Of a stretch of DNA of 64,000 nucleotides, positions 2 through 56,821 are shown one piece after another (position 1 is the stretch's first letter; each line of letters starts with the position of its first letter). The stretch lies in assembly GCF_029227855.1 (NCBI RefSeq), contig NZ_CP074356.1; one strand, written 5' to 3'. Source of the stretch: Escherichia coli (GTDB lineage Bacteria > Pseudomonadota > Gammaproteobacteria > Enterobacterales > Enterobacteriaceae). The notes under the pieces were generated by a model. That model saw only the letters and a program-made list of their open reading frames with translations, was not told the DNA's origin and did not search any database. A program made the position numbers and the translations under genes.

Positions 2-2974
2 GCTGCGGACCGGATCATCCGCTGGTCCGATAACGACCAGACGTGGAGCCGTTTCACCTACGATGAACAGGGCCGGTGCGTGAATGTCACCGGGGCGGAG
101 GGCTATTACAACGCCACGCTGGACTATGGTGACGGCTGCACCACCGTGACGGACGGCAAGGGCATTCACCGTTATTACTATGATCCTGACGGCAATATTC
201 TGCGGGAAGCAGCGCCGGACGGCAGCACCACCACGTATGAATGGGATGAATTCCATCACCTGCTGGCCCGTCACTCCCCTGCCGGGCGGGTGGAGAAATT
301 TGAATACAACGCCGCACACGGTCAGTTAAGCCGTTACACGGCGGCAGACGGCGCGGAGTGGCAGTACCGCTATGATGAGCGCGGCCTGCTCAGCAACATC
401 ACCGACCCTGCCGGGCAGACGTGGACACAGCAGTGTGATGAACGCGGCCTGCCGGTAAGTCTGGTGTCGCCACAGGGCGAAGAGACCCGGCTGGCATACA
501 CCGCTCAGGGGCTGCTGTCGGGAATATTCCGCCAGGATGAACGGCGTCTGGGCATAGAGTACGACCACCACAACCGGCCGGAAACACTCACCGACGTGAT
601 GGGCCGTGAACACCACACCGAATACAGCGGTCACGACCTGCCGGTGAAGATGCGCGGCCCCGGCGGTCAGTCAGTGCGGTTGCAGTGGCAGCAGCACCAT
701 AAACTGAGTGGCCTTGAGCGCACTGGCACCGGCGCGGAAGGGTTCAGCTATGACCGCCACGGCAACCTGCTGGCCTGGACGGACGGCAATGGTGTTGTCT
801 GGACAATGGAGTACGGCCCGTTCGATTTGCCGGTGGCGCGAACGGACGGTGAAGGCCACCGCTGGCAGTACCGCTATGATAAAGACACGCTGCAACTGAC
901 AGAAGTCATTAACCCGCAGGGTGAGTCATATCTTTATGTTCTGGATAACTGCGGCCGGGTGACGGAAGAGCATGACTGGGGCGGCGTGGTCTGGCGTTAC
1001 CGCTATGACGCCGATGGCCTGTGTACCGCCAGGGTCAACGGCCTGGAGGAAACCATCCTCTACAGCCGGGACGACGCAGGCCGCCTGGCAGAAGTCATCA
1101 CGCCGGAAGGCAAAACGCAGTATGCGTATGACAAATCCGGCAGGCTGACGGGTATCTTCAGCCCGGACGGCACATCACAGCGCACCGGCTATGACGAACG
1201 CGGGCGGGTGAATGTCACCACTCAGGGCCGACGGGCCATTGAATACCACTACCCCGATGAACACACCGTCATCCGCTGTATCCTGCCACCGGAAGATGAA
1301 CGCGACAGACACCCCGGTGAATCCCTGCTGAAAACCACGTACCGCTACAACGCAGCCGGAGAACTGGCAGAGGTCATCCTGCCGGAGGATGAGACGCTGA
1401 CGTTCAGCCGTGATGAGGCAGGACGTGAAGTGCTCCGGCACAGTAACCGGGGTTTTGCCTGTGAGCAGGGCTGGAATGCAGCCGGTCAGCTTACCAGCCA
1501 GCGCGCCGGACTTTTCCCGGCAGAAGCCACATGGGGCGGGCTGCTCCCCTCACTGGTACGGGAGTACCGTTACGACAGCGCGGGCAATGTGTCGGCTGTC
1601 ACCAGCCGGGAAGATTACGGACGGGAAACTCGCCGGGAGTACCGGCTGGACCGGAACGGCCAGGTCACGGCGGTGACAGCCTCAGGCACCGGGCTGGGCT
1701 ATGGCGAAGGCGATGAGTCCTATGGCTATGACAGTTGTGGCTACCTGAAGGCGCAGTCTGCGGGCAGGCACCGGATAAGTGAAGAGACTGAGCGGTATGC
1801 CGGAGGCCACCGGCTGAAACAGGCCGGAAACACGCAGTATGACTATGACGCCGCAGGCCGGATGGTCAGCCGCACCAGACACCGTAACGGCTATCGCCCG
1901 GAAACAGAGCGGTTCCGGTGGGACAGCCGGGACCAGCTGACCGGGTATTGCAGCGCACAGGGTGAACAGTGGGAATACCGCCACGACGCCAGCGGCAGAC
2001 GGACGGAAAAACGCTGCGACCGGAAGAAAATCCGCTTCACGTACCTGTGGGACGGCGACAGTATTGCGGAAATCCGGGAATACCGCGATGATAAACTGTA
2101 CAGCGTAAGGCACCTGGTGTTTAACGGCTTTGAGCTGATAAGCCAGCAGTTTAGCCGGGTACGGCAGCCGCACCCGTCCGTGGCCCCGCAGTGGGTGACG
2201 CGGACGAATCATGCGGTGAGCGATCTGACGGGCCGTCCGCTGATGCTCTTTAACAGTGAAGGTAAAACCGTCTGGCGACCGGGACAGACCAGCCTGTGGG
2301 GGCTGGCACTCAGCCTGCCCGCGGACACCGGCTACCCGGACCCGCGCGGGGAACTGGACGCGGAAGCCGACCCCGGCCTGCTGTATGCAGGACAGTGGCA
2401 GGATGCGGAATCCGGGCTGTGCTATAACCGGTTCCGGTATTACGAGCCGGAAACAGGGATGTACCTGGTGAGTGATCCGCTGGGGTTGCTGGGGGGTGAG
2501 CAGACTTACCGGTATGTGCCGAATCCGTGTGGGTATGTTGATCCTTTGGGATTAGCAACATGTCCCATAATCAGACAACGGGTGCTGGCTAACCTTGAAG
2601 CCAGTCGGGCAGCAAGGGCTGCATCTAATTTTGGTAAGAAAAATATCTATGATTTTATCAAGGCAACTCAATCTGCTATCCCTGGCACCTCTATCCCAAA
2701 ATCTTTTGAGATTATAACTGCTAATGGTACTTTCTGGGTACACCCAAATGCTACAAAACATATGGCTGAATATTTGACTCGGAACGGTCTCTCACATTCA
2801 ACTTCTGTAGAGAGCCAAATAATGTTAACAAGTTTTCACGAAGCTGTAAGTTTGGCTAGTGCTCAAGGTATAAAGTATGAAGAAATGATGAATGTTGGCG
2901 GCTGGGAACTAGTATTTAGTCAAGCTAAATCTGACTCGGCTTTATCAGTTATTAAACATGCTCTTTATAAATGA
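2..2974 (+). CDS. Rhs-family polymorphic toxin, 5'-truncated by the window edge; YD-repeat core ending in a DPLGL motif, then a ~140-aa C-terminal toxin domain of unassigned family
   Basis: The reading frame is open from position 2 to the stop at 2974. Repeated YDxxGR(L/V) motifs run throughout, and the core ends with RYYEPETGMYLVSDPLGL...YVDPLGL followed by a lower-GC extension (ATCPIIRQ...KHALYK). Confidence 0.85.
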   Translation, partial: AADRIIRWSDNDQTWSRFTYDEQGRCVNVTGAEGYYNATLDYGDGCTTVTDGKGIHRYYYDPDGNILREAAPDGSTTTYEWDEFHHLLARHSPAGRVEKFEYNAAHGQLSRYTAADGAEWQYRYDERGLLSNITDPAGQTWTQQCDERGLPVSLVSPQGEETRLAYTAQGLLSGIFRQDERRLGIEYDHHNRPETLTDVMGREHHTEYSGHDLPVKMRGPGGQSVRLQWQQHHKLSGLERTGTGAEGFSYDRHGNLLAWTDGNGVVWTMEYGPFDLPVARTDGEGHRWQYRYDKDTLQLTEVINPQGESYLYVLDNCGRVTEEHDWGGVVWRYRYDADGLCTARVNGLEETILYSRDDAGRLAEVITPEGKTQYAYDKSGRLTGIFSPDGTSQRTGYDERGRVNVTTQGRRAIEYHYPDEHTVIRCILPPEDERDRHPGESLLKTTYRYNAAGELAEVILPEDETLTFSRDEAGREVLRHSNRGFACEQGWNAAGQLTSQRAGLFPAEATWGGLLPSLVREYRYDSAGNVSAVTSREDYGRETRREYRLDRNGQVTAVTASGTGLGYGEGDESYGYDSCGYLKAQSAGRHRISEETERYAGGHRLKQAGNTQYDYDAAGRMVSRTRHRNGYRPETERFRWDSRDQLTGYCSAQGEQWEYRHDASGRRTEKRCDRKKIRFTYLWDGDSIAEIREYRDDKLYSVRHLVFNGFELISQQFSRVRQPHPSVAPQWVTRTNHAVSDLTGRPLMLFNSEGKTVWRPGQTSLWGLALSLPADTGYPDPRGELDAEADPGLLYAGQWQDAESGLCYNRFRYYEPETGMYLVSDPLGLLGGEQTYRYVPNPCGYVDPLGLATCPIIRQRVLANLEASRAARAASNFGKKNIYDFIKATQSAIPGTSIPKSFEIITANGTFWVHPNATKHMAEYLTRNGLSHSTSVESQIMLTSFHEAVSLASAQGIKYEEMMNVGGWELVFSQAKSDSALSVIKHALYK

Positions 2975-3504
2975 CGATTATGCTTACATTAGAAAATGAA
3001 ACAAACTACAAAGATGTTGTTGTTAATATAGATGAATTTGTACCTTTTGATATAACTTTTGGAAAGGGGAGCGAACAGTGTTTGTACTGGAGAGGCGGCA
3101 ATGGTAAAAGTTCTTTGGTTGAAGTTGGGTTAAATATGTACAGCGGAGAAGTAAGTAACATCACACTAGCAAATATCGATTCAGGTGAAATTAACATTAC
3201 AGATGAGATGTTAGCCAACAACCTTCCTGAAATACAAGGGTCTGTTATATTTCAGACAAGCGAGTGGCTTAATAAAGACATTTCCGAATACTCAAACAGA
3301 TTTATTGATGATTTTGATTGCAATATCAAGTTAATAATTGGTAGTAATTACATTAAATTATTATTTAAAAAAGCAACAAATCCCATTTGTTATATCATTA
3401 ATAGGAATATAAGATTTGGTTTTTCTTTGAGTAGGGAACTTTCGACATTGGAAATATTAGACCTCAATCAAGAAAAATTAGATATTCTAAAGTTATTTAA
3501 ATAG
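2971..3504 (+). CDS. Putative cognate immunity protein for the upstream Rhs toxin domain
   Basis: A 177-aa ORF whose ATG overlaps the toxin stop (ATGA at 2971-2974). It is AT-rich and sits immediately downstream of the toxin, the usual toxin-immunity arrangement. Confidence 0.55.
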   Translation: MTIMLTLENETNYKDVVVNIDEFVPFDITFGKGSEQCLYWRGGNGKSSLVEVGLNMYSGEVSNITLANIDSGEINITDEMLANNLPEIQGSVIFQTSEWLNKDISEYSNRFIDDFDCNIKLIIGSNYIKLLFKKATNPICYIINRNIRFGFSLSRELSTLEILDLNQEKLDILKLFK

Positions 3505-3995
3505 TTTTAGTGTTTGAAACTTACCGAGAGATGATAGCTATGAATGAATACAAAAACATCCATCTTGGAGGAAACAATGGAATGTTAATCCATTAAAAAA
3601 CATACTTCAATATCTTTAGTGAAGAAAGAGTTGTATGAAAGAAATATATCTTATGTGAGCGACATGATGCATGCTAATTATATTATTGGCCGGAAATTTT
3701 ATGATGATAGCAAAAAGGAGGGGTTATTTCTGTAAGAATGGATATACCCGCAGGGTTTGAACCAGACATTTATTTGTTGAAGTCTAAGATCCAAATGGAA
3801 GCATTTATATCCCTCAGATATTATGCGTTGACGGGTTGATAAAGATACTTTTAGAGGGTTAATAAATGGAGAACGTATAATAAATCTCTTAAACAAACTA
3901 TAACCTGTACTAATGAAAAAAATGGGAATAGATAAGTTAATAGCCTATTCTAAAAATGGTAAAGTGGTTTTACTTCCAAAATAATGGAGTTTAGT

Positions 3996-4427
3996 ATGAA
4001 AATCGAAGCTAATTCCCTTACTCATCCCTATGACTACAACGCCTCACTGAACAATTATTTACATTATTTTGAGAATTTCTCTCGTAATGACTGGAATAAA
4101 GATTCATGTGGAGGATATTTTACTTTTAGAGATGATGACAGAGAGTGTGTTTTGTTTTTTGTGAATTATGGTGATAATTTTTCATTGCGCTATGATTGTA
4201 CACAAAGTTCTGATGGAATAGTGTCATGCTGGTATAGTAACCATGAAGATGATAAAATGAATATCATCGTCGATGCTGATACAGAACAATTTATCCCTTT
4301 AGGTTCTTGCTTACCTCCTGATATTACTTTATCAGTAATAAAAGATTTTTTCAAAAATCCTTTAGAGAAATCAAAAAAAGTAAAATGGATGAATGCAGAT
4401 GACATTGACTGGTCATCTGTGTATTAA
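3996..4427 (+). CDS. Hypothetical protein, possible orphan immunity protein
   Basis: An ORF of ~143 aa (from MKIEANS; an upstream ATG at 3984 is also possible) with AT-rich composition, lying in the island downstream of the Rhs toxin. No recognisable catalytic motif. Confidence 0.4.
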   Translation: MKIEANSLTHPYDYNASLNNYLHYFENFSRNDWNKDSCGGYFTFRDDDRECVLFFVNYGDNFSLRYDCTQSSDGIVSCWYSNHEDDKMNIIVDADTEQFIPLGSCLPPDITLSVIKDFFKNPLEKSKKVKWMNADDIDWSSVY

Positions 4428-5289
4428 AGTTGGATTGGATAATTATCTGTTTCAAAAATCATTAAATTTAGAACCTATCTGTTCAACAGAGCTGCCTTGA
4501 ACAGCAGGTTCTTTTATGATGTCCAGGAGCGAATATGCCTGTGATGTCTGGCACTCAGCATCTGACTGACCTGGACTACTGATCCTACTCACACAGGGAG
4601 CTAGACCTGGAAGCAACCTACTGTAAGCAGTGCAGTAGCAGCCCACCTCACATCAGTCCTTGCAAGGTGTGGGCCTTTGTGATCTTGCTCTGTATTGCTG
4701 AGATCCTCAGGAAGGACTCGAAATTTAATCAGGAAGGCCGTTGCTAAAAATCAAAAAATAAATTCAAGAGCAATTTCTAAAACTTTTGAATCTACTGTAT
4801 CGGATGAGGTTTTCACTCCTTTCCAAAAGGTGAGTTTTCAAGCATTCAAGTTTCTGTTATGACCAAAACTTCACCATTTAACACTAATCCGAGTATTATG
4901 TTACCATGAAGAAAAAAGATATTAGATTTGCAATATCCATTAACTCCAACTCAAGTAAGATAGAATTAATGGAAAAATTAAAAACATAATCCCAGGGCTT
5001 ATTGAAATAACTCCCAGTGCATTAAGAGAAGAAAAAACATGGTAGTTATTGAAGATAATGATCTTTATGACTCTATAAAAGCAGAGGGAGTTGATGGATG
5101 GATGTATTATAAATTCATATTATCCATATTCCCATTAAAGGGAGTAGACACAACATTAGAATATCAACGGAAATTATCTTTTCTTTTCTTAAAGAAATTA
5201 AAAGATGCGGGTCTGTTAGGTGAACTTATATGCGAGGATGATTTTCATGACTGATGACCTCTACATATATCCTCAGTTCGTGGCTGGTA

Positions 5290-5631
5290 TTACATGATCT
5301 GACAGGGAAAGATCGTAGCGAAATCAAAAAAGACGTGGATTTCCCGGAAGCCGGTGAAGACACGGCGCTCTGCGACAAGGAGACTAAACCGCCGAGGATA
5401 GCCCAGGGCAGCAGCAACGTTTTTATCAACAATCAGCCTGCCGCACGCCAGGGAGACAAACTGGAGTGCAGTGCGGCGATCGTGGAAGGTTCGCCGGACG
5501 TCTTTATTGGGGGTGAGCAGGTCACCTATCTGGATATCCAGCCGGAGTTCCCGCCGTGGCAGAGAATGATCCTGGGGGGAATAACGATAGCCAGCTATCT
5601 TCTGCCGCCAGCGCAGGGAAAGATCACGTAA
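5290..5631 (+). pseudogene. PAAR-domain fragment, probably the C-terminal part of the N-terminal PAAR region of a T6SS-type Rhs or PAAR protein
   Basis: A GC-rich segment inside the 5254..5631 ORF encodes IAQGSSNVFINNQPAARQGDKLECSAAIVEGSPDVFIGG, matching the PAAR motif pattern. The composition shifts abruptly near 5290, and no credible N-terminus or Rhs core follows. Confidence 0.5.
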
Positions 5632-5700
5632 CGCTGCTTTTTTGTACTAAATAATTCGCACTAAATGTTCAATAATTGAGATATTCCTTATTACCTAAAT
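5614..5700 (+). repeat. Direct repeat copy 1 (~90 bp; cagggaaagatca...tttgtactaaataattcgca...gatattcc.tattacctaaa)
   Basis: About 80% identical by eye to 7645..7738. It lies at the 3' junction of the PAAR fragment. Confidence 0.6.
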
Positions 5701-5750
5701 ACAGTTCCACCAAGATTACCTAAACCCAAATGAGGTAAAAGATAGTGGGT

Positions 5751-6112
5751 ATGAATAAAAATGAAATCCATTTCCCTATAGGATATGGTTGGTTGAATGA
5801 AAAAAAATTATTGGCACCAGTGAATTTAGCCAATTAGAACCATGGTTTTATCTAGATGAGAACAGGTGTTTTTTTGCGAATAAAAAATGGCCAAATGTCA
5901 TAGGTGAACAATTATTCGCTTTTGCTAAACGTCAAGATAATGATGAATTGGCTTGTTTCAAAATTAATGAATCTGGAGTCTGTGAGGGTGTTTATTTAAT
6001 TAATGGGTGGACTCCTAACGGGTTTGATATTATACAATTTTACCCTGATTTTTGGGAATGGGTACATTTGGTTATACAAGATGTCTCGGAGTGGATTGAT
6101 AATAAAGGATAA
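5751..6112 (+). pseudogene. Frameshifted immunity-like gene; any family resemblance (e.g. SMI1/KNR4-like) is tentative
   Basis: ATG at 5751 gives MNKNEIHFPIGYGWLNEKKLLAPVNLAN then a stop. The +1 frame continues KKIIGTSEFSQLEPWFYLDENRCFF...EWIDNKG to 6112. The frame break coincides with an A8 homopolymer near 5803-5810. Confidence 0.35.
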
Positions 6113-6141
6113 TTTGAAACAAAAGTAAAAAACCGCCTTCA

Positions 6142-6840
6142 TTGAAGGTAACGTGGAGTGGTGGGCGGAGCAGCCTGCCCGCAGACACAGACTACCCGGA
6201 CCCGCGCGGGGAGCGGGACGCGGAAGCCGACCCCGGCCTGCTGTATGCAGGACAGTGGCAGGATGCGGAATCCGGACTGTGCTATAACCGGTTCCGGTAT
6301 TACGAGCCGGAAACCGGGATGTACCTGGTGAGTGATCCCCTGGGGTTGCTGGGGGGTGAGCAGACTTACCGGTATGTGCCTAATCCTAGTGGGTATGTTG
6401 ATCCTCTGGGATTAGCAACGTGTCCTATACTCAGACAGTGGGCGCTGACTAACCTTGAAGCCAGTCGGGCAGCAAGGGCTGCATCTAATTTTGGTAAGCC
6501 TCTGGTCCAGCGAAATAAAACGATTGGCGATAAAGTAAGGGATATGATTGCCAAAGAGAGGGGAACCACTCTAATTGAACAAAATTATAGAGTGACAGGA
6601 GGATTAAAGCGTATTGACGTTGTTGATGGAGTAACGGGTATAGAATCTAAAGTCGATCGAACAGGGTTAACAACCCGAGTACGGCAAGAGGTAGCGCGGG
6701 ATATTAAGATTTTGAGAAGTGAGCAACTTGATCAAATTGAATGGGTGTTTACAAGAAGTTCAACTACAGGGAAGATTGGGCCAACTAAACCACTTGAAGA
6801 TCTTTTAAATAAACATGGTATACCGATTATTTATCGATAA
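6142..6840 (+). CDS. Orphan Rhs C-terminal module: core-end repeat (DPLGL) plus an alternative toxin domain, possibly a PD-(D/E)xK-like nuclease
   Basis: Positions ~6176-6500 are near-identical to 2310-2630 (the end of the first Rhs core plus 26 codons). The sequences then diverge into a different C-terminal domain containing RIDVVDGVTGIESKVDRTG. The reported ATG at 6142 is probably not the native start. Confidence 0.7.
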   Translation: MKVTWSGGRSSLPADTDYPDPRGERDAEADPGLLYAGQWQDAESGLCYNRFRYYEPETGMYLVSDPLGLLGGEQTYRYVPNPSGYVDPLGLATCPILRQWALTNLEASRAARAASNFGKPLVQRNKTIGDKVRDMIAKERGTTLIEQNYRVTGGLKRIDVVDGVTGIESKVDRTGLTTRVRQEVARDIKILRSEQLDQIEWVFTRSSTTGKIGPTKPLEDLLNKHGIPIIYR

Positions 6841-6851
6841 GGAGTGATAGT

Positions 6852-7409
6852 GTGAAACTCAAACCGATTGGTGACTTTTTAAACAAAAATGGGTTTATAA
6901 AAAATGGTAACAATGATTTTTATAAAGTTCATGATAAGTTTGTAAATTGTATAAATTTTCAAAAAAAGAGTACAGGTGATATTTTTTTTATAAACACAGG
7001 TGTTCATCCTGTGTTCGAAAATTTTTGCAATGAACCACCGAAAAAAGAAATAGATTGTTACATCCGTAACCGTGTGTGTGATGGACTAAGTATATCTTTG
7101 CTGCATTCTTTTGAAGGTAGTGAGTTTGTTATCAGTGAGATAAAAAACAAAGCGTTTTGTTTTTTTGAATACTTTGATTCATTGAATAAAATATTCGATG
7201 CTATTCGTGTTGTAGATATTGAAGAGAGAAATATTTGCGATGAGCTAAGTGGTGTAAGCAGCGTAAGATTAGCTTTGATGTGTATGAACTACCAGTATGA
7301 GAAAAAAAAATTTAGCCTTGTTTCTGATTTTGCGAACTATGGTCTTGCTATATCTAGAGGCCCGGTACCGAAAAAAGCATTTAAGGATATGATAAAAATA
7401 ACAGAGTGA
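6852..7409 (+). CDS. Putative immunity protein for the orphan Rhs toxin module
   Basis: A 185-aa ORF with a GTG start 12 bp after the toxin stop, preceded by AGGAG at 6841-6845. AT-rich. Confidence 0.5.
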   Translation: MKLKPIGDFLNKNGFIKNGNNDFYKVHDKFVNCINFQKKSTGDIFFINTGVHPVFENFCNEPPKKEIDCYIRNRVCDGLSISLLHSFEGSEFVISEIKNKAFCFFEYFDSLNKIFDAIRVVDIEERNICDELSGVSSVRLALMCMNYQYEKKKFSLVSDFANYGLAISRGPVPKKAFKDMIKITE

Positions 7410-7419
7410 TACCTAATCC

Positions 7420-7650
7420 GGTGTAATACTTGCTGCCTGTGTACCGCGAAGATTAACGGCCGGGAGGAAACTATTCTCTACAACCGGGACGCCACAGGCC
7501 GCCTGGCAGAAGTCATCACGCCGGAAGGCAAAACGCAGTATGCGTATGACAAATCCGGCAGGCTGACGGGTATCTTCAGCCCGGACGACACATCACAGCG
7601 CACCGGCTATGAAGAACGCGGGCGGGTGAATGTCACCACTCAGGGCAGGG
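7420..7650 (+). pseudogene. Internal Rhs core fragment
   Basis: About 215 bp nearly identical to 1021-1230 of the first Rhs core (encoding ...EETILY..RLAEVITPEGKTQYAYDKSGRLTGIFSPD...). Homology is lost at the cagggaaagatca junction. Confidence 0.6.
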
Positions 7651-7738
7651 AAAGATCATCCAAAGTACACTTTTTGTACTAAATAATTCGCATTTTATGT
7701 TTAAAAATGGAGATATTCCTCATTACCTAAAGCTGTTT
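7645..7738 (+). repeat. Direct repeat copy 2 (~90 bp), immediately upstream of the ISAs1-family transposase
   Basis: Matches 5614..5700 in sequence. It may be the left end of the H-repeat element or a recombination scar. Confidence 0.6.
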
Positions 7739-7739
7739 T

Positions 7740-8940
7740 TTATTGCTTATACATGATCAAATACTCCTTACATAATTAAGGAGAACAAAATGGAACTTAA
7801 AAAATTGATGGAACATATTTCTATTATCCCCGATTACAGACAAGCCTGGAAAGTGGAACATAAATTATCGGATATTCTGCTGTTGACTATTTGTGCCGTT
7901 ATTTCGGGTGCAGAAGGCTGGGAAGATATAGAGGATTTTGGGGAAACACATCTCGATTTTTTGAAGCAATATGGTGATTTTGATAATGGTATTCCTGTTC
8001 ACGATACCATCGCCAGAGTTATATCCTGTATCAGTCCTTCAAAATTTCACGAGTGTTTTATTAACTGGATGCGAGATTGCCATACTTCAGATGATAAAGA
8101 CGTCATCGCAATTGATGGAAAAACACTCCGGCATTCTTATGACAAGAGTCGCCGCAAGGGAGCGATTCATGTCATTAGTGCGTTCTCAACAATGCACAGT
8201 CTGGTCATCGGACAGATCAGGACGGATGAGAAATCCAATGAAATTACAGCTATCCCTGAACTTCTTAACATGCTGGATATTAAAGGAAAAATCATCACAA
8301 CTGATGCGATGGGTTGCCAGAAAGATATTGCAGAGAAGATACAAAAACAGGGCGGTGATTATTTATTCGCTGTAAAAGGAAACCAGGGGCGGCTAAATAA
8401 AGCCTTCGAGGAAAAATTTCCGCTGAAAGAATTAAATAATCCAGAGCATGACAGTTACGCCATTAGTGAAAAGAGTCACGGCAGAGAAGAAATCCGTCTT
8501 CATATTGTTTGCGATGTCCCTGATGAACTTATTGATTTCACGTTTGAATGGAAAGGACTGAAGAAATTATGCGTGGCAGTCTCTTTTCGGTCAATAATAG
8601 CAGAACAAAAGAAAGAGCCAGAAATGACGGTCAGATATTATATCAGTTCTGCTGATTTAACCGCAGAGAAGTTCGCCACAGCAATCCGAAACCACTGGCG
8701 CGTGGAGAATAAGCTGCACTGGCGTCTGGACGTGGTAATGAATGAAGACGACTGCAAAATAAGAAGAGGAAACGCCGCAGAATTATTTTCAGGGATACGG
8801 CACATCGCTATTAATATTTTAACGAATGATAAGGTATTCAAGGCAGGGTTAAGACGTAAGATGCGAAAAGCAGCCATGGACAGAAACTATCTCGCGTCAG
8901 TCCTTGCGGGGAGCGGGCTTTCGTAATCTTGCCCTGCGTT
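7740..8940 (+). mobile_element. ISAs1-family (H-repeat) insertion element; boundaries approximate
   Basis: Contains one intact transposase ORF. The terminal inverted repeats could not be delimited by eye. Confidence 0.4.
7790..8926 (+). CDS. ISAs1-family transposase (H-repeat-associated protein; YhhI/YdcC/YbfD-like)
   Basis: A 378-aa ORF ([32 protein letters not shown]...[31 protein letters not shown]) recognised as the H-repeat protein family found inside Rhs elements. Confidence 0.85.
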
Positions 8941-48618: not shown

Positions 48619-49545
48619 ATGTTCGATCCAGAAACCTTGCGGACTTTCATTGCGGTTGCTGAAACAGGAAGTTTTTCAAAAGCGGCAGAACGATTATGTA
48701 AAACGACGGCGACCATCAGTTATCGCATTAAGCTTCTGGAAGAGAATACCGGAGTGGCGCTGTTTTTCCGCACGACTCGCAGCGTAACGTTGACAGCGGC
48801 TGGCGAACATCTGCTTTGTCAGGCCAGAGACTGGCTGAGCTGGCTGGAAAGCATGCCCAACGAGCTACAACAGGTGAATGATGGCGTGGAACGCCAGGTG
48901 AATATTGTCATCAACAACCTGCTCTATAATCCCCAGGCCGTCGCCCAGTTGCTGGCGTGGCTGAATGAACGTTACCCCTTTACCCAGTTTCACATCTCCC
49001 GACAAATCTATATGGGCGTCTGGGATTCGCTATTATACGAAGGTTTTTCACTGGCTATCGGCGTCACGGGAACCGAGGCGCTGGCAAATACCTTTAGTCT
49101 TGATCCCTTAGGATCGGTGCAATGGCGCTTTGTCATGGCGGCGGATCATCCGCTGGCGAACGTTGAAGAGCCGCTAACAGAAGCGCAGTTGCGGCGCTTT
49201 CCTGCGGTCAATATTGAAGACAGCGCTCGCACCTTAACCAAACGCGTCGCCTGGCGTTTGCCGGGGCAAAAGGAGATTATTGTTCCTGATATGGAAACGA
49301 AAATCGCCGCCCATCTGGCGGGCGTTGGCATTGGTTTTTTGCCAAAATCACTTTGCCAGTCAATGATCGATAATCAACAACTGGTCAGCCGGGTAATCCC
49401 AACTATGCGCCCTCCTTCGCCATTGAGTCTGGCATGGCGCAAATTTGGCAGCGGCAAAGCGGTAGAAGATATTGTGACCTTGTTTACCCAGCGCAGGCCG
49501 GAAATCAGCGGATTTTTAGAAATTTTCGGCAACCCACGCAGTTAA
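48619..49545 (+). CDS. allS: AllS, LysR-family activator of allD
   Basis: 308 aa with an N-terminal LysR helix-turn-helix. Confidence 0.9.
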
Positions 49546-49598: not shown

Positions 49599-50708
<1,110 letters not shown>

Positions 50709-50823
50709 TGAGGGACGTATTTGTATTAGTCGCGACTTGATCTGACACATGGCCTTGAAAGGTTGAGAGTTACCGGTTTTGATATGAGTGTCGAATCCTT
50801 ATCCAAAACAAGAGGTAACTCTC

Positions 50824-51195
50824 ATGCTTCATACTGCCAATCCCGTCATCAAACACAAAGCCGGTTTGCTCAATCTGGCTGAAGAACTCAGCAACGTATC
50901 AAAAGCCTGTAAAATCATGGGCGTTTCGCGTGAAACGTTTTATCGTTACCGCGAACTGGCCGCTGAAGGCGGTGTGGATGCGCAGATTAATCGTAGTCGC
51001 CGCGCTCCTAACCTTAAGAACCGTACCGATGAGGCAACTGAACAGGCTGTTGTTGATTACACCGTCGCTTTCCCGACACATGGTCAGCACCGGGCCAGCA
51101 ACGAGCTGCGTAAACAGGGGGTTTTTATCTCCGACAGTGGTGTCCGTTCTGTCTGGTTACTCCATAACCTTGAGAATCTCAAAAGACGATACTGA
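50824..51195 (+). pseudogene. ylbG: ylbG-like helix-turn-helix fragment (N-terminal remnant of an IS-type transposase/regulator)
   Basis: About 123 aa from MLHTANPVIKHKAGLLNLAEEL, an HTH-only protein with no catalytic domain. Confidence 0.6.
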
Positions 51196-51261
51196 ACAAA
51201 TTTTATCAGGTGACGTTCCGTAAAAAGTTGTATGGAGTTCTCGATGCAGTCGGCGCGACTA

Positions 51262-51343
51262 TCAGTACCCCCGCTGAACCCTGGACTATCGGGCCGCCGT
51301 ACTGGAGCATGTCACCCTGGCGTGCCGCTGGTTTTCCGCTAAT
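51262..51343 (-). pseudogene. Remnant of an Rhs 5' end (PAAR-like N-terminal codons), start codon lost
   Basis: About 80 bp resembling 56315-56393, the first ~25 codons of the full-length Rhs, with ATG replaced by ATT and a stop after ~40 codons. Confidence 0.45.
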
Positions 51344-51709
51344 GGTTTATTTCCTCTTTCTTTCCCGGCGAGAATTTATTTTAATCCGGAAGGATTATTT
51401 ATTTTCAGATAGGGACTCACATTAAACACGAAACATTTTAATTAATGCATGGCTGAATATGTATTACACAATGTCAGATATCGTAAAAGACCAGTGCAAT
51501 TCTATGTAAACTCTCTGACTGTTCATTTTATTTGTTGTTTCAGGGTCGGAACTCACCCTCAATAAACAACTGAATACGAGTAGATATTCATCGTCTGAGC
51601 TATATGGCTTTACACAATAGCCGACATGTCTTTTCTCAGTCAGGGATTTTACTTTTCCTCACTACGAAGTTGACGACTTCGATATGGGATAGACTCTTAA
51701 TTCAAGCAA

Positions 51710-52201
51710 TTACTCTGCACAAGCATCAGGCAATCCAGCTCCAATATTTGTTATAAAATAATGCGTAACATTAATTTCACCAACAAAAAAAAGGTTTACG
51801 CTATCCCCTTGCCCTGGTATTTTACCATATTTACACCACACTTTTTTTGTATCTGGATCATTCTCTGATACGATTTTCGCCACTTGTTCCCTGGCCCTCA
51901 CCGTCAATGTTTTCTTAAACCTCCCCCCATCATCGATTGTTAGGGAAAAATAAGAAAAAAAATAATCACCTTCTACATTTGTGGATATTGATATATCCAC
52001 CGCTACATGCGGAAAAAAATCTGGGAGCCATGTAAAAACCCCATCACTTTCTGGTATTGCCATATAGTTTATGTAATGCTTACTTACAAGAGATTCATCT
52101 TTGTGTAAATAAAGATAAGTAGTCACGCATAAAAAAACAACGATTATAATAGCAAAAATAAATATTACCATCTTTGAGATGTTACTTGAGATAGCCAGCA
52201 T
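51710..52201 (-). CDS. Putative immunity protein for the rhsD-locus Rhs toxin, with an N-terminal transmembrane helix
   Basis: An AT-rich ORF of 153-163 aa directly downstream of the Rhs stop, overlapping it or separated by ~10 bp depending on the start. Hydrophobic segment [21 protein letters not shown]. Confidence 0.55.
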
Positions 52202-55200
52202 CTTGTAAAGCCTTTATCGTTTTTTTATGCTCTGGATTAATATAATCAATACATCTATTTGAGCAATCTTGTGTTAATGGACATGTCAACCCATGTTCAT
52301 TTACAGCCAAGTCTTTTTTATTATCTTCAATCATCTCAGAATGGGATAACTTTACTTTTCTGCCGTACATACCGAACATATTTAACCCGTAATCTCTAAT
52401 CTCTTTTTCATAACCCAGCCCTTTCGCTGATCGGCTAACACCAGCGTCATTTAATTTAGACACTCGACAAAATGCCATACAATGGAAAAATTGATCAGTC
52501 CCACCTAAATTTAATCTCTTCATATCATCATAAGTATCAGATAATATATCCCATGCTCTTTGATGGTTTAGTTGTTCTTTTTTTCGCATTAACGCTACAT
52601 CTGCAGGACTTAACCCTAATGGATCAATACCATTCACCGGATTCAGCGGATACGCATACAGACTCCATCCCCCCGCCAGCCCAATCGGGTCCTGAGCAAT
52701 ATATCGTCCCAGCAACGGATTGTAGTACCGGTTCCGGTTATAATACAGCCCTGACTCCTCATCGTGTTGCTGCCCTGGCAGACGGTACGGCTGGTGCAGG
52801 TGATGCGGGTTTTCCTCATTCAGCAGGTTTCCCCACTCATCATACTCCCCGCTCCACGCCGTATTGCCGTCTTCGCTGATGAGCGCCAGCGGCAGCCCCC
52901 GGTGGTCACAGTGATAAAGATGAATTTTTCGCTCAGGTAAATAAACCGGCTCTATCTGTGCCGCCAGCCGCTCCACCGTCAGCCCGCACTGTGCCAGCCA
53001 CTGGCGGCTTTCACTGCTCACGCGGTCTGCCCGGATTTCCCCCTCCAGCCTGTCCAGCAGCCGCACCAGTTCAGCCGGGAACACCACGCCGTGTCCGTCC
53101 TCGCTCCCTTCCTGCTGGAGCTTCTCCGCCAGGCTGCGGCGCTGCGCTTTCTCCCGCTCGCCGTTCTCTGTCTCGACCCGGATGAGCGGCGTGAAGCTTC
53201 CCGGCTGGTACACCGTCTGGATACGCGTGGTGTCGGTCTGTACTGTCGCCAGCCTGTCGCCGTCCCACCCGTACCACGTTACCTCCGGTTTACGCGACAG
53301 CGACATCCACCCCGTCAGGTCACGCTCCCGCCGCCATACCCGTTTCGCCATTCGCCATCCCAGCGGGTCGTAGAGGTAGCGGCTCTCGACCAGTGGCTCG
53401 CCATGCTGTATCCGCGTGTAGAACACCAGGCGGTGCTGGCTGTCGTAGTGGTAGTGGTGGGTCCGCTCGTCGTCCGTCCGTATCACACCCGCCGGGATGC
53501 GGTCCGTCTTCTCTGTCAGCCTGCCGTATTCATCGTGGCGGTAGACATAGTGCGCATCCTCCGCGATGCGGTTATCCGGCCACGCCGTGAGTGTACTGTC
53601 CGGGTGCAGCTCCGGGTCCGGCAGCCGGTTGCCCGCCGGGTCCGTGGCATACGGGATGCGGATGTCCAGGTCCGGTGCGAGGGTGCGTACACTCGCCAGC
53701 CTGCCCGTGGCACTGTAGCCGTATTCCCGCGTCTGTCGCGGGCCGCTGATGCGCACAAGGTCGCCGTTGTCATTCCACCCGTAGTCACGGTCATACACCA
53801 GGCTGTTCAGGTGCTGGCTCTGTAACTGGCCTGCAGGGGTGTATGTGCTGGTCAGTTCGTATGCGGCATTACTGCCTGCCATGCTGCCAAAGCTGCGCAC
53901 CGTTTCTCTGTGCAGGCGGTCGCGCGCGTACTCCAGCAGCGGCGTGTCGCCCAGCTTCATGCCCGCCAGATAACCGCTACCGTAGGTCAGCCACTCCACC
54001 GGCGGCAGGCTGTCCGGCGTGACGCGGTTTGCCAGCCCCTGTTCGTTGTATGCCTGTTTCGTCTCATGCTGCCACAGCAGTTCCCCCGTCTCCGGGTTCT
54101 TCACCGTCTGGTGCTCACTGGTCAGACGGCCTTTATCGTCATAGCCGTAGTGGACCGCCACACGGTGGCCTTCGCTCAGGTGGCTGATTTCTCTCAGCCA
54201 GCCGTGGCCATCATACTGCCACTGCTCTGCCGGTTCGCCGTTCACCGTGCGGTGAGTGAGGCGGTCCGATTCGTCGTAGTGCCAGAGGGTGACAAGCCCC
54301 TCATCTTCACTCTGCGTGAGTTTTCCGGTCAGGTCATAATGATAACGTTGCGTCCGCCCGTCAAAGCCGCTCTGCTGTACCAGCCGGTCCAGTGCGTCGT
54401 AACGGAAGGCGCTGTCACTGCCGTTCTCGTTGGTCAGCGTGGCGACACGTCCTGCCGCGTCATACTCCATACTGCGCGTCAGCCCGCCCTGCGTGGTGCT
54501 GACCGCTTTTCCCCACGCATCGTACTGTGTCTCGCTCCGGTTGCCGCCCGGGGTGATAACGGCAGTCAGGTCGCCTGCGGCGTTGTACTCATACTGCGTT
54601 TCACGGCCCTGTGCGTCTTTCACCGAGGTTAACCGGCCACGGTTGTCATAGTGGCGGTAAAGGCTGATGCCTTCCTCGCGGTGGACCGCCGTCATCTGGC
54701 CGAAGCGGTCATACTCATAGCGGGTCTGGTAGCCCGAGCAGTCGGTGAACGCCAGCAACTGACCGTAGCGGCTCCAGGTCATCTGCCGGGTGCTGCCCGT
54801 CGCATCTGTTGTCGTGGCCGGTAATTCACTGTGCGGATTATCATAAGCATACCGGATGACGTCCCCACTGCGCGATGTCTCCGATACCAGCCTGTCCCGC
54901 TCATCATACGCCCGGCGGCTCTCCAGCCCGTCCGGGTACACCACCGCCGTCACCAGGTTCCCGTCGTTATAGTAAAATTTCGTCTCCCGCCCGTCCGGCG
55001 TGGTGATGTCCGTGATGTCGCCTGACACCACATTCAGACCGTACTCTGTCCGCCGTCCCGCCGCGTCCGTCTGCGCCGTAAGCCGCCCCACCGGGTCATA
55101 CCCGCTGCGCGTGACGCTGCCGTCCGCCAGTTCTTTTTTCACCACCCGCTTCAGCCCGGCCCCGCCTTCTGTATGCAGCACCTCACGCCGGTTCAGGCTG

Positions 55201-56393
55201 TCCGTGACGGTGATGCGGTCCTGCTCATACTGGTAGCGGTAACTCAGGCCTGCCGGGTTCAGCTGCTCCACCACCCGCCCCGCATCGTCGTAGCGGTAGC
55301 GCATCTCCGGCCTTCCCGCGTAACGGTGCGCCACCATCCGGCCCGGGTGCTGCGCGTCATACGTGAAAGCGCGCACCTGCGTATTGCTGCGGTCATATAC
55401 CGCCAGCAGTTCACCGGCTTCCGTATACGTGTACCGCACCAGTGGCGCACCGGGCAGGCTCTCCGGGTATGCCGGGTCGTGCATCAGCCACACCGCCGAA
55501 AGACGGATGCCCCTGTCGGGGCCGTATTCGGTACCGGGCAGTGTGTCGGGGAACGCTGAGGCTGAAAGAGGGCGGGGGGTGTCAGGGGAAAATAAGGAAG
55601 CGGTGTGCTGTTTACGGGCCTCTTCCGCCCGCTGCGCCTGCGTGGTCAGCACCAGACGGAACTCCCGCCCGGCACCGTCCGTCACGCCGGTGATTTCCCC
55701 GGCCAGGTCACCGGCGGCCTCACGCCGGTACGTCAGCGTCTGCCCGAAGCGGTCCGCCAGCCCGGTAAGCACCCGGTACGGCGGCAGCGGCGCTGGCAGT
55801 ACGTCCTCAGTGCCCGGCACCCGCTCTGACCACCCCAGTATCCACCACGGTCCCTGTGCGCTGTTGGTCGCCAGGTAAAGATGCGGGCTTAACCGGATAT
55901 CCGGCGGCAGCGACGCCCACAGCCGTGCCAGCGTGTGGCCGTCCGGCTGCGCTGCCTTACCACCGCGAACCAGCCACATTGACTCGCTGCGGCTGTACAC
56001 CGCCCCCCCCGGCAGCAGCGGCTCAAAGTGAATGCTCCGTCCGCCGTTGTCGTTGAGTACCAGTGCATCATCGCGTATCTGTAAGCGGATATCAGAAGGC
56101 GCTTTCCAGCCGGGGCCAAAAATCCCCACCGGCGCAGGCGTCTTCGTCCGGTAGCTGCTGTAGGTGCGGGAGAGAATGAACGGCAGCGGGCCGGGCAGCG
56201 CAAGGTCCGTCTCGCCGGGCAGCACCTTCGCCCCCAGCAGCGGATTTACCGGGTTGCCCGAAGTCATCCTGCCCGGACACACCGAGCACGCCACGCCGGT
56301 GGGCGCGCCAATTCTTACACCTGCCGAACCCTGGACAATGGGACCGCCATACTGAGTCATATCTCCCTGACGCGCCGCTGGTTTTCCGCTCAT
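52182..56393 (-). CDS. Full-length Rhs polymorphic toxin at the K-12 rhsD position, with a Cys/His-rich C-terminal toxin domain of unassigned family
   Basis: 1403 aa with a PAAR-like N-terminus [33 protein letters not shown], extensive YD repeats, a DPIGL...DPLGL core end, then a ~145-aa tail with a compositional drop. It lies next to ybbP, as rhsD does in K-12. Confidence 0.9.
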
Positions 56394-56821
56394 ATAAAGT
56401 GCCCTTTTAGTTATTGTTCATATTCCTGTGTTAGCAACAAAAAAATAAAATGACACACAAGACCAGCTAATGTATTTATATATTTTTCACATAAACTTAT
56501 TTGTTCTCAATCAACAACAACTGTTATTACAGGTCACTTTCAATATTTTATTAAACTAACATTTTTAGCACAGATGAATTCATCATCAACAAATTCACTA
56601 TATGGATAATATCCATTCAACGCATATGGTTTATGATTTTATTAGTCTGAGTTATTTTTGTAGGGCTATATTTAAAATTATTAAACTCCACCGATTCAGA
56701 TTAATATCAGCAATAGAAAGATAGGAAATCACCAATTCAATAACATCATCAATGAAACATATTGTAGAATTAATTTAAACAAGGCGTTCCATTCAACCAG
56801 AACGCCCCTTATTTACTCTCA

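What the first reader, a model, noticed from the sequence alone, without database searches (positions are those of the whole stretch)
51262..51343. Rhs 5'-end remnant stranded between ylbG and the immunity gene
About 80 bp on the minus strand resemble the first ~25 codons of the full-length Rhs 5 kb away, but with ATG changed to ATT. This marks a past duplication or deletion event at this locus and provides a short homology patch that could mediate rearrangement with the intact gene.
Basis: seen in the sequence. Interest (0 to 1): 0.35.

Follow-up and report, generated by a model that had tools for sequence, protein, structure and literature searches.

The report
Known dead Rhs gene stub (ylbI)
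The ~95-base patch is real, but it is the already-annotated E. coli pseudogene ylbI: the dead first 32 codons of a second Rhs toxin gene that once followed the present one and was almost entirely deleted.

Summary
Window 51343..51249 (minus strand) aligns with the 5' end of the full-length Rhs gene (56393..56299). Identity is 74/96 nt, the peptide is nearly identical, and the alignment score is 88 against 17±2 for shuffles. ATG is replaced by ATT.

It is the orthologue of E. coli K-12 pseudogene ylbI (b4632). It shows 99% identity over 521 nt at the same position, and 2751 of 5426 complete E. coli genomes carry it.

It is not a copy of the neighbouring gene:
- 14 of the 18 differing codons are synonymous.
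- Its 230-nt upstream flank differs from that of the resident Rhs gene.
- One E. coli contig (L020) has the same flank, after an unrelated immunity gene, leading into an ATG-started rhs gene that runs 1.2 kb.

ylbI is therefore the stub of a second rhs gene that lay in tandem.

Its broken end abuts the interior (transposase residue ~298) of a degraded IS481-family element, which is annotated as ylbG. That makes the junction a deletion endpoint.

The suggestion that the patch mediates rearrangement is not supported. The longest exact match with the intact gene is 17 nt, and none of the 5426 genomes carries the predicted deletion product.

Overall this is an ordinary, already-annotated scar of low interest.

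The parts
51249..51343 (-). ylbI: the first 32 codons of a lost rhs gene. The start codon has mutated to ATT. Codon 13 is CTC here.
   Evidence: Searches give the alignment to rhs 5' ends. Searches show annotation as pseudogene ylbI/b4632 in K-12 and as an 'incomplete, missing C-terminus' CDS by PGAP. One search shows the match to RHS_core positions 1-33. One search gives 63% G+C.
51344..51574 (-). Conserved 5' flank (ribosome-binding site and about 230 nt upstream) of the lost rhs gene.
   Evidence: The stretch 51574-51392 is 86% identical to DNA downstream of an unrelated 150-aa immunity gene in L005. It aligns throughout to L020, where the last 60 nt are 51/60 identical ungapped and the flank leads into an ATG-started rhs gene. 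The ribosome-binding-site region also resembles that of the second rhs gene at the yafV locus.
51241..51249 (.). Junction between the rhs stub (codon 32/33) and the interior of the IS481-family element. This is a deletion endpoint, possibly with AGTCGG microhomology.
   Evidence: IS homology ends at about 51245 (transposase residue ~298 of 346) and rhs homology ends at 51249. No IS terminal repeat is present here.
50721..51245 (+). ylbG, a degraded IS481-family insertion sequence. The left inverted repeat and transposase residues 1-122 occupy 50721-51196. An internal ~460-bp deletion follows, at a short direct repeat. Residues 278-298 occupy 51183-51245. The right end is missing.
   Evidence: Comparison was with full ~1.2-kb copies on plasmids (L003, L004), giving 95% and 83% identity for the two pieces.
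51575..51709 (-). Remainder of the spacer downstream of ybbD. It is not shared with L005 or L020. It contains the TCGTCA-19-TAAAAT motif that Shimada 2014 lists as a promoter for ylbI.
   Evidence: (sequence read from alignment A1).
51710..52201 (-). Intact YbbD-family gene (163 aa) immediately downstream of rhs, in the position of a putative immunity gene for the Rhs tip.
   Evidence: NF011298, 370 bits against a cut-off of 326.
52182..56393 (-). Full-length Rhs (1403 aa). It is the K-12 rhsD-type core joined directly to the ylbH-type C-terminal tip.
50716..56815 (.). The whole Rhs island. It replaces the 228-bp REP-containing selU-ybbP spacer seen in strains without it.
   Evidence: LF82 empty site. 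Searches show other occupants of the same hotspot.

Best explanation
The patch is a non-functional scar. It is the ribosome-binding site and first 32 codons (ylbI), plus about 230 nt of upstream flank, of a second rhs toxin gene. That gene once lay in tandem downstream of the present rhs-ybbD pair, in the same orientation.

An IS481-family element sat further downstream, next to selU. A deletion with one end inside the IS (transposase residue ~298) and the other at rhs codon 32/33 removed three things: the right end of the IS, nearly all of the second rhs gene, and whatever toxin tip and immunity genes followed it.

The stub then decayed. ATG became ATT, and codon 13 drifted from ACC to CCC to CTC. 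The IS suffered a further internal deletion, leaving the fragment annotated as ylbG.

What is shown:
- identity with K-12 ylbI;
- the homology to rhs 5' ends;
- the IS-interior junction;
- the same junction in four lineages compared base by base, and the flank-plus-stub block in half of complete E. coli genomes;
- the same flank leading into a longer rhs gene elsewhere.

What is inferred:
- that a full-length second rhs gene once existed at this particular locus;
- that one deletion, rather than several steps, made the junction;
- the order of events.
For: Identity with K-12 ylbI:
- 99.2% over 521 nt at the same position.
- The same ATT start and the same junction are seen in K-12, L012, L015 and L016.
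- The flank-plus-stub block is present in 2751 of 5426 genomes.

A diverged functional parent, not a local copy:
- 14 synonymous against 4 non-synonymous codon differences from the resident rhs; P about 2e-5 under an assumed 28% chance of a synonymous change.
- Rhs-core-like G+C content.
- A rare database allele still reads [13 protein letters not shown]..., that is M at codon 1 and T at codon 13, with the same IS-derived tail.

The parent was the second gene of a tandem pair:
- In L020 the same flank follows an unrelated immunity gene and leads into an ATG rhs gene that runs 1.19 kb until an ISAs1 element.
- The last 60 nt of that flank are 51/60 identical ungapped to the window (48 of the final 49). 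The coding part is 72/81 identical outside a variable patch at codons 12-16.

An independent analogue exists at the yafV locus:
- An intact vgrG-rhs-immunity-(76 nt)-rhs array is seen in L017 and L018.
- In L010 and the MAG contig L014 the second rhs gene is cut at codon 12 by ISAs1. 1080 genomes hold that query stretch at 80% coverage or more, and nearly all the rows sampled list only the immunity gene under it.
- ylbI shares its ribosome-binding-site region and the VLI.APT residues with that second gene.

The junction lies inside the IS:
-.
Against: - No genome among the 5426 shows an intact second rhs gene at the ybbP-selU locus itself. The tandem ancestor at this site is therefore inferred from other loci.
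- L020 is a 3-kb unlocalised contig, so its chromosomal position is unknown.
- ylbI is a mosaic of its relatives: codons 13-22 are closest to the L006 Rhs and codons 26-32 to L020/L017. No single parent lineage is identified.
- The whole scarred block could have been imported ready-made, rather than formed in place.
- The 83% identity of the second IS piece is lower than the 95% of the first piece. I have no explanation for this.
Confidence: 0.85

Rival explanations
1. Local partial duplication: the stub is a copy of the 5' end of the resident rhs gene, made by a duplication at this locus and since decayed.
For: The two share orientation and lie 5 kb apart in the same island. The peptides are nearly identical.
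Against: - Nucleotide identity is 77%, while the flanking DNA is 96-99% conserved between strains.
- The differences are overwhelmingly synonymous, which is the signature of two functional lineages and not of a decaying copy.
- The upstream flank is unrelated to the resident gene's flank (8/25 identical) and is instead shared with L020's rhs gene.
Confidence: 0.03
2. Functional homology arm: rhs 5' stubs downstream of immunity genes are retained because they serve as the right-hand homology for swapping toxin-tip/immunity cassettes, or for rearrangements with the intact gene.
For: - The arrangement recurs at more than one locus.
- Tandem rhs arrays would flank each cassette with conserved rhs sequence on both sides.
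- The stub is widespread.
Against: - The longest exact run with the resident gene is 17 nt.
- 0 of 5426 genomes have the predicted recombinant.
- The one large deletion seen at this locus (FT130, L019) does not use ylbI as an endpoint.
- The stub's wide distribution is explained by descent from a single event.
Confidence: 0.05
3. Expressed micro-gene or regulatory element: the retained promoter region, strong Shine-Dalgarno sequence and rare AUU start yield a 45-residue PAAR-like peptide. Alternatively, a transcript runs antisense into the IS remnant.
For: - A good AGAGGA ribosome-binding site lies 8 nt upstream.
- Genomic SELEX lists a constitutive sigma-70 promoter for ybbD>ylbI (PMC3946193).
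- An FNR ChIP peak is assigned to ylbI (PMC1802558).
Against: - Codon 13 is T, P or L in different strains.
- The last 13 residues are read from IS antisense sequence.
- A simple promoter scan of the spacer finds nothing.
- There is no Rfam family above threshold.
- A 32-residue piece cannot form a PAAR domain (Pfam 19 bits against a cut-off of 27).
Confidence: 0.04
4. Remnant of a stand-alone small PAAR gene rather than of a full-length rhs gene.
For: The retained residues include the PAAR motif.
Against: - The match to the RHS_core model N-terminus (47 bits) is far better than to the T6SS PAAR-domain model (16.5 bits).
- Nucleotide identity to rhs 5' ends is 74-82%.
- The identical flank in L020 leads into an rhs gene that PGAP annotates as DUF6531 domain-containing.
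Confidence: 0.02

Closest known systems
E. coli K-12 pseudogene ylbI (b4632), NC_000913.3 529497-529592
   Same: It occupies the same position between ybbD and ylbG. Identity is 99.2% over 521 nt including flanks. It has the same ATT first codon and the same junction to the IS remnant.
   Different: There is one substitution in codon 13 (CTC here, CCC in K-12) and one in the flank. The neighbouring Rhs also differs. K-12 has an extra rhsD tip plus ybbC, which leaves ylbH as an orphan and ybbD as a pseudogene. Here the ylbH-type tip is on the main gene and ybbD is intact.
Second rhs gene of tandem rhs arrays, and its ISAs1-truncated stub at the E. coli yafV/T6SS locus (downstream of dsORF-h1)
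   Same: The layout is immunity gene, short spacer, then an rhs start with a similar ribosome-binding-site region (AAAGAAA(G)AGGAA(A)TAAACC). In L010/L014 the gene is reduced to a 5' stub abutting an insertion sequence at the edge of the island.
   Different: It is a different locus, a different IS (ISAs1 inserted at codon 12, with an IS terminus at the junction) and a different coding lineage (71/96 nt identical).
Displaced 'orphan' rhs C-terminal tips with immunity genes (C-terminal displacement model, Jackson et al. 2009, PMC2935791)
   Same: [quoted passage not shown]
   Different: Orphans are 3' fragments (core end, toxin tip and immunity gene) that can be re-used by recombination. ylbI is a 5' fragment with no toxin or immunity content. 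A term search of that paper found no mention of N-terminal fragments or remnants.
IS481-family insertion sequences (full ~1.2-kb copies on Escherichia plasmids, L003/L004)
   Same: ylbG matches the left inverted repeat and transposase residues 1-122 at 95% nucleotide identity, and residues 278-298 at 83% nucleotide identity.
   Different: Most of the transposase (residues 123-277, by position the catalytic region), the C-terminus and the right inverted repeat are missing, so the element cannot move.

Membership tests
Orthologue of K-12 ylbI (b4632) | Same genomic position (between ybbD and ylbG, next to selU) and near-identical sequence | tested here: met
   99.2% identity over 521 nt. The gene order allS-selU-ylbG-ylbI-ybbD is conserved.
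Orthologue of K-12 ylbI (b4632) | Same truncation junction and same ATT first codon | tested here: met
   identical junction and ATT in K-12, L012, L015 and L016.
Rhs (RHS element core protein) gene | N-terminal sequence matching the Rhs core family | tested here: met
   NF041261 positions 1-33, 47 bits, E 8e-13; 71-79 of 96 nt identical to five rhs 5' ends.
Rhs (RHS element core protein) gene | Full-length ORF with YD repeats, the core-end motif, a toxin tip and a functional start codon | tested here: not met
   ATT start, only 32 rhs codons, then 13 codons of IS antisense sequence and a stop. It is a fragment, not a gene.
Rhs (RHS element core protein) gene | G+C-rich core composition within an A+T-rich setting | tested here: met
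   63% G+C against 34% in the flank. The Rhs core is 64%.
PAAR domain protein (PF05488) | Complete PAAR domain above the Pfam gathering score | tested here: not met
   19.1 bits against a cut-off of 27, covering only profile positions 21-50 of 70.
Orphan rhs tip/immunity module | 3' core fragment followed by a variable toxin tip and a cognate immunity gene | tested here: not met
   the homology is to positions 1-33 of the core (the 5' end). No tip or immunity gene follows; the IS481 remnant does.
IS481-family insertion sequence (for the adjoining ylbG) | IS481-type transposase N-terminal helix-turn-helix region and left terminal inverted repeat | tested here: met
   NF033577 positions 2-112; the left end is aligned from the first base of the plasmid copies.
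IS481-family insertion sequence (for the adjoining ylbG) | Intact catalytic domain and right inverted repeat | tested here: not met
   residues 123-277 and 299-346 and the right repeat are absent.

The most novel reading that the evidence does not exclude
Rhs 5' stubs with their conserved ~230-nt flank are not just debris. They might be retained because they keep an active promoter and ribosome-binding site, giving a low-level AUU-initiated peptide or an antisense transcript over the IS remnant. Alternatively they might serve as the downstream homology arm that lets tandem rhs arrays exchange toxin/immunity cassettes. Recurrence of the same layout at several loci is compatible with either reading.
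Probability: 0.05. Interest if true: 0.4.

Novelty: already known. Interest (0 to 1): 0.12.

Why it matters
This matters little on its own. The feature is an annotated pseudogene of the best-studied bacterial genome, shared by about half of complete E. coli genomes.

The modest added value is a more exact natural history:
- ylbI derives from a separate rhs gene that lay in tandem, not from the neighbouring one.
- ylbI and ylbG, two K-12 genes of unknown function, are the two sides of one deletion scar: the first is an rhs stub and the second a degraded IS481-family element.
- Insertion sequences repeatedly erode the second gene of rhs tandems, with different elements and cut points in the window, L005, L010 and L020.

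This helps annotation, since neither feature should be treated as a gene. It is also a caution against reading short homology patches as recombination substrates.

Tried and rejected
- A protein search with the 45-residue translation returned only short Rhs N-terminal fragments. It could not identify a parent lineage, but it did reveal the rarer [13 protein letters not shown]... allele (P0001). No encoding contig for P0001 was on record.
- A scan of 100,044 species-representative genomes for the ylbI-type ribosome-binding site plus start (AATAAACCATKAGCGGAAAACC) found only two E. coli-like contigs inside metagenome bins. No relative from another species was found that way.
- I first read the spacer as part of the ybbD cassette, because part of it recurs downstream of another immunity gene. 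I rejected this once that immunity gene proved unrelated to YbbD and the shared block was seen to continue into an rhs start in L020. The block belongs to the lost rhs gene.
- I first suspected that the IS had inserted into rhs at codon 32, because plasmid copies matched up to exactly that point. I rejected this when the match turned out to end inside the transposase gene, with no terminal repeat.
- The top hit for an 'intact parent' query (FT130) was a false lead. It is an internal deletion of the resident rhsD that brings two separate matches close together.
- An Rfam search of 50600-52300 gave only a sub-threshold psRNA2 hit over the IS end.
- The promoter scan of the spacer found nothing.
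- A literature search for ylbI and b4632 found only table entries.

Full report
**1. Observation**

The minus strand of window 51343..51249 reads ATT AGC GGA AAA CCA GCG GCA CGC CAG GGT GAC ATG ... The full-length Rhs gene (52182..56393, minus strand, 1403 aa) begins ATG AGC GGA AAA CCA GCG GCG CGT CAG GGA GAT ATG ....

- A local alignment scores 88; 500 shuffles gave 16.9 ± 2.1, maximum 29.
- Over the first 32 codons, 74 of 96 nt are identical.
- The peptides are [32 protein letters not shown] and [32 protein letters not shown].
- The NCBIfam RHS_core model matches positions 1-33, E 8e-13.
- The 95 nt are 63% G+C, like the Rhs core (64%), inside 34% G+C DNA.

**2. Identity**

The window is E. 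coli (100% identity to strain JNEC-KY178).

The K-12 MG1655 record annotates a 96-bp pseudogene, ylbI (b4632, 529497-529592), between ybbD and ylbG. PGAP annotates the same 96 bp in other strains as an incomplete CDS missing its C-terminus. Window 51720..51200 is 99.2% identical to that K-12 stretch. K-12 has the same ATT first codon and the same downstream junction. The finding is therefore an already-annotated pseudogene.

The flank plus stub is present at 80% coverage or more in 2751 of 5426 complete E. coli genomes. These include K-12, O157:H7, O26 and O111 strains. It is absent from, for example, LF82.

**3. Locus**

On the plus strand the order is:

| Feature | Coordinates | Strand |
|---|---|---|
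| allS | 48619-49545 | + |
| selU/mnmH | 49614-50708 | + |
| ylbG | 50824-51189 | + |
| ylbI | 51249-51343 | - |
| A+T-rich spacer | 51344-51709 | |
| YbbD-family gene, 163 aa, intact | 51710-52201 | - |
| Rhs | 52182-56393 | - |
| ybbP | 56822-59236 | - |

Compared with K-12, this Rhs is the rhsD-type core joined directly to the ylbH-type tip. The K-12 unit carrying the rhsD tip and ybbC is absent, and a 212-bp core segment that is duplicated in K-12 is single here.

Strains without the island have a 228-bp REP-containing selU-ybbP spacer. The island occupies window 50716-56815. The same gap holds a dinQ-like gene in some strains, or an Hcp-fused effector with three DUF2931 genes in others.

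**4. What abuts the stub**

ylbG matches the N-terminal third of IS481-family transposases. Full ~1.2-kb copies on Escherichia plasmids (L003, L004; transposase 346 aa) align as follows:

- Window 50721-51196 matches the left inverted repeat and residues 1-122, at 95% nucleotide identity.
- About 460 bp are then missing, at a short direct repeat.
- Window 51183-51245 matches residues 278-298, at 83% nucleotide identity.

IS homology stops at about 51245 and rhs homology stops at 51249. No IS terminal repeat is present at this point, and the IS right end and residues 299-346 are missing. The junction is therefore a deletion endpoint that joins the IS interior to rhs codon 32/33. A possible AGTCGG microhomology lies at the join. 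It is not an IS insertion site.

The IS left end lies within six bases of the island boundary next to selU.

**5. Origin of the stub**

It is not a copy of the neighbouring gene.

- Of the 18 codons that differ, 14 differ synonymously; P about 2e-5 under an assumed 28% chance of a synonymous change.
- Two of the four non-synonymous differences look like later decay. A rare database allele still reads M at codon 1 and T at codon 13, with the same IS-derived tail. K-12 has CCC at codon 13 and this window has CTC.
- The sequence upstream of the start is unrelated to that of the resident rhs gene (8/25 identical).

Window 51574-51392 is 86% identical to DNA downstream of a 150-aa immunity gene at a vgrG-linked Rhs locus (L005). 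There an ISAs1 element interrupts it 45 nt before the expected start.

In contig L020, the same 150-aa immunity gene is followed by the same flank. That gene is unrelated to YbbD. The last 60 nt of the flank are 51/60 identical ungapped to the window. The flank is followed by an ATG-started rhs gene, [38 protein letters not shown]..., which runs 1.19 kb until another ISAs1. Outside a variable patch at codons 12-16, ylbI and this gene are 72/81 identical.

The shared block is therefore the 5' region of an rhs gene that sits second in a tandem pair. L020 is the only record among the 5426 genomes in which a ylbI-type gene continues beyond codon 33.

**6. An independent analogue**

At the yafV/T6SS locus some strains carry an intact array: hcp-vgrG-rhs-immunity(dsORF-h1)-76 nt-rhs-immunity-ISAs1 (L017, L018).

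In L010, and in the MAG contig L014, the second rhs gene is cut at codon 12 by ISAs1. The query stretch spanning the end of dsORF-h1 and this rhs start is held at 80% coverage or more by 1080 genomes. Nearly all the rows sampled list only the immunity gene under it.

ylbI shares its ribosome-binding-site region and the VLI.APT residues with that second gene.

The start of this same window also holds another Rhs element, in which a PAAR-containing N-terminal fragment runs into an ISAs1 end fragment. Erosion of the downstream gene of rhs tandems by insertion sequences is thus recurrent.

**7.

The stub and the intact gene are direct repeats 5 kb apart, so recombination between them would delete rhs-ybbD.

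- The longest exact run they share is 17 nt. From my own knowledge, efficient RecA-dependent exchange in E. coli needs roughly 23-27 bp, and 23% divergence is further opposed by mismatch repair.
- A synthetic query joining the rhs upstream region to ylbI and the IS found no genome, out of 5426, with one place covering 80% or more of it.
- The one large deletion seen at this locus (FT130) has other endpoints.

The rearrangement idea is therefore not supported.

**8. Function**

No function is indicated by the sequence evidence.

- The first codon is ATT.
- Codon 13 varies between T, P and L among strains.
- The frame ends in 13 codons of IS antisense sequence.
- 32 residues cannot form a PAAR domain.
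- No Rfam family reaches threshold, and a simple promoter scan is empty.

Two genome-wide studies list the region. Genomic SELEX reports a constitutive sigma-70 promoter for ybbD>ylbI (PMC3946193). An FNR ChIP peak is assigned to ylbI with no site given (PMC1802558). Either would be compatible with residual promoter activity of the lost gene, but neither demonstrates a role.

**9. Verdict**

This is a real, correctly located Rhs 5' remnant, and it is already known as K-12 ylbI. The best explanation, at confidence 0.85, is that it is the stub of a second rhs gene that lay in tandem. That gene was lost by a deletion whose other end lies inside an IS481-family element, itself left as the fragment called ylbG. 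Novelty: already known. Interest is low.

Noticed in passing
window 80-8934: A second, different Rhs element lies next to nfrB. It comprises an Rhs gene cut by the window start (80-2974) and a 125-aa PAAR-containing N-terminal fragment (5254-5631) that runs into an 85-nt ISAs1 end fragment (5612-5696). It also has an orphan Rhs C-terminal piece (6142-6840) with a following ORF (6852-7409), and a full ISAs1 (7645-8934). This is the same theme of a downstream rhs-type gene gutted by an IS.
   Followed up: partly
window 52182-56393 and 51710-52201: The main Rhs carries the tip that is the orphan ylbH in K-12, with an intact 163-aa YbbD. K-12's rhsD tip plus ybbC unit is absent, and the 212-bp core segment 52648-52859 is single here but duplicated in K-12. 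This is either the state before C-terminal displacement or a deletion between the repeats.
   Followed up: partly
window 50716 and 56815 (island boundaries); L007, L008, L009: The selU-ybbP gap is a variable hotspot. It is an empty REP-containing spacer in LF82, holds a dinQ-like type I toxin gene in strain E41, and holds an Hcp-fused effector with three DUF2931 genes in ESC53083. Here it holds the Rhs island.
   Followed up: partly
window 51182-51196: The internal ~460-bp deletion of the IS481 element lies at a short imperfect direct repeat (AAAAACG-T-CTGAA / AAAACAATCCTGAA in the full copy). This suggests slippage or microhomology-mediated loss. The piece beyond it is only 83% identical to plasmid copies, against 95% for the first piece; I have no explanation for the difference.
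   Followed up: partly
window 50650-50821 (minus strand): There is a sub-threshold Rfam match to psRNA2 (RF02349, 31 bits against a gathering score of 65, E 2e-5). It spans the selU 3' end and the IS481 left end.
   Followed up: no
L019 (E. coli FT130) 10001-11265: In this strain the resident rhsD is reduced to its first 852 nt and ylbI follows about 320 nt later. This is a large deletion that removed most of rhs and ybbD without using ylbI as an endpoint.
   Followed up: partly
L005 6185, L010 6054, L020 ~2706: ISAs1 (H-repeat) elements cut the second rhs gene or its flank at three different positions in different strains: 45 nt upstream of the start, at codon 12, and at about nt 1190.
   Followed up: partly
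window 29484-29585: REP-type repeat similar (77-97% identity) to the REP units of the empty selU-ybbP spacer of LF82.
   Followed up: no
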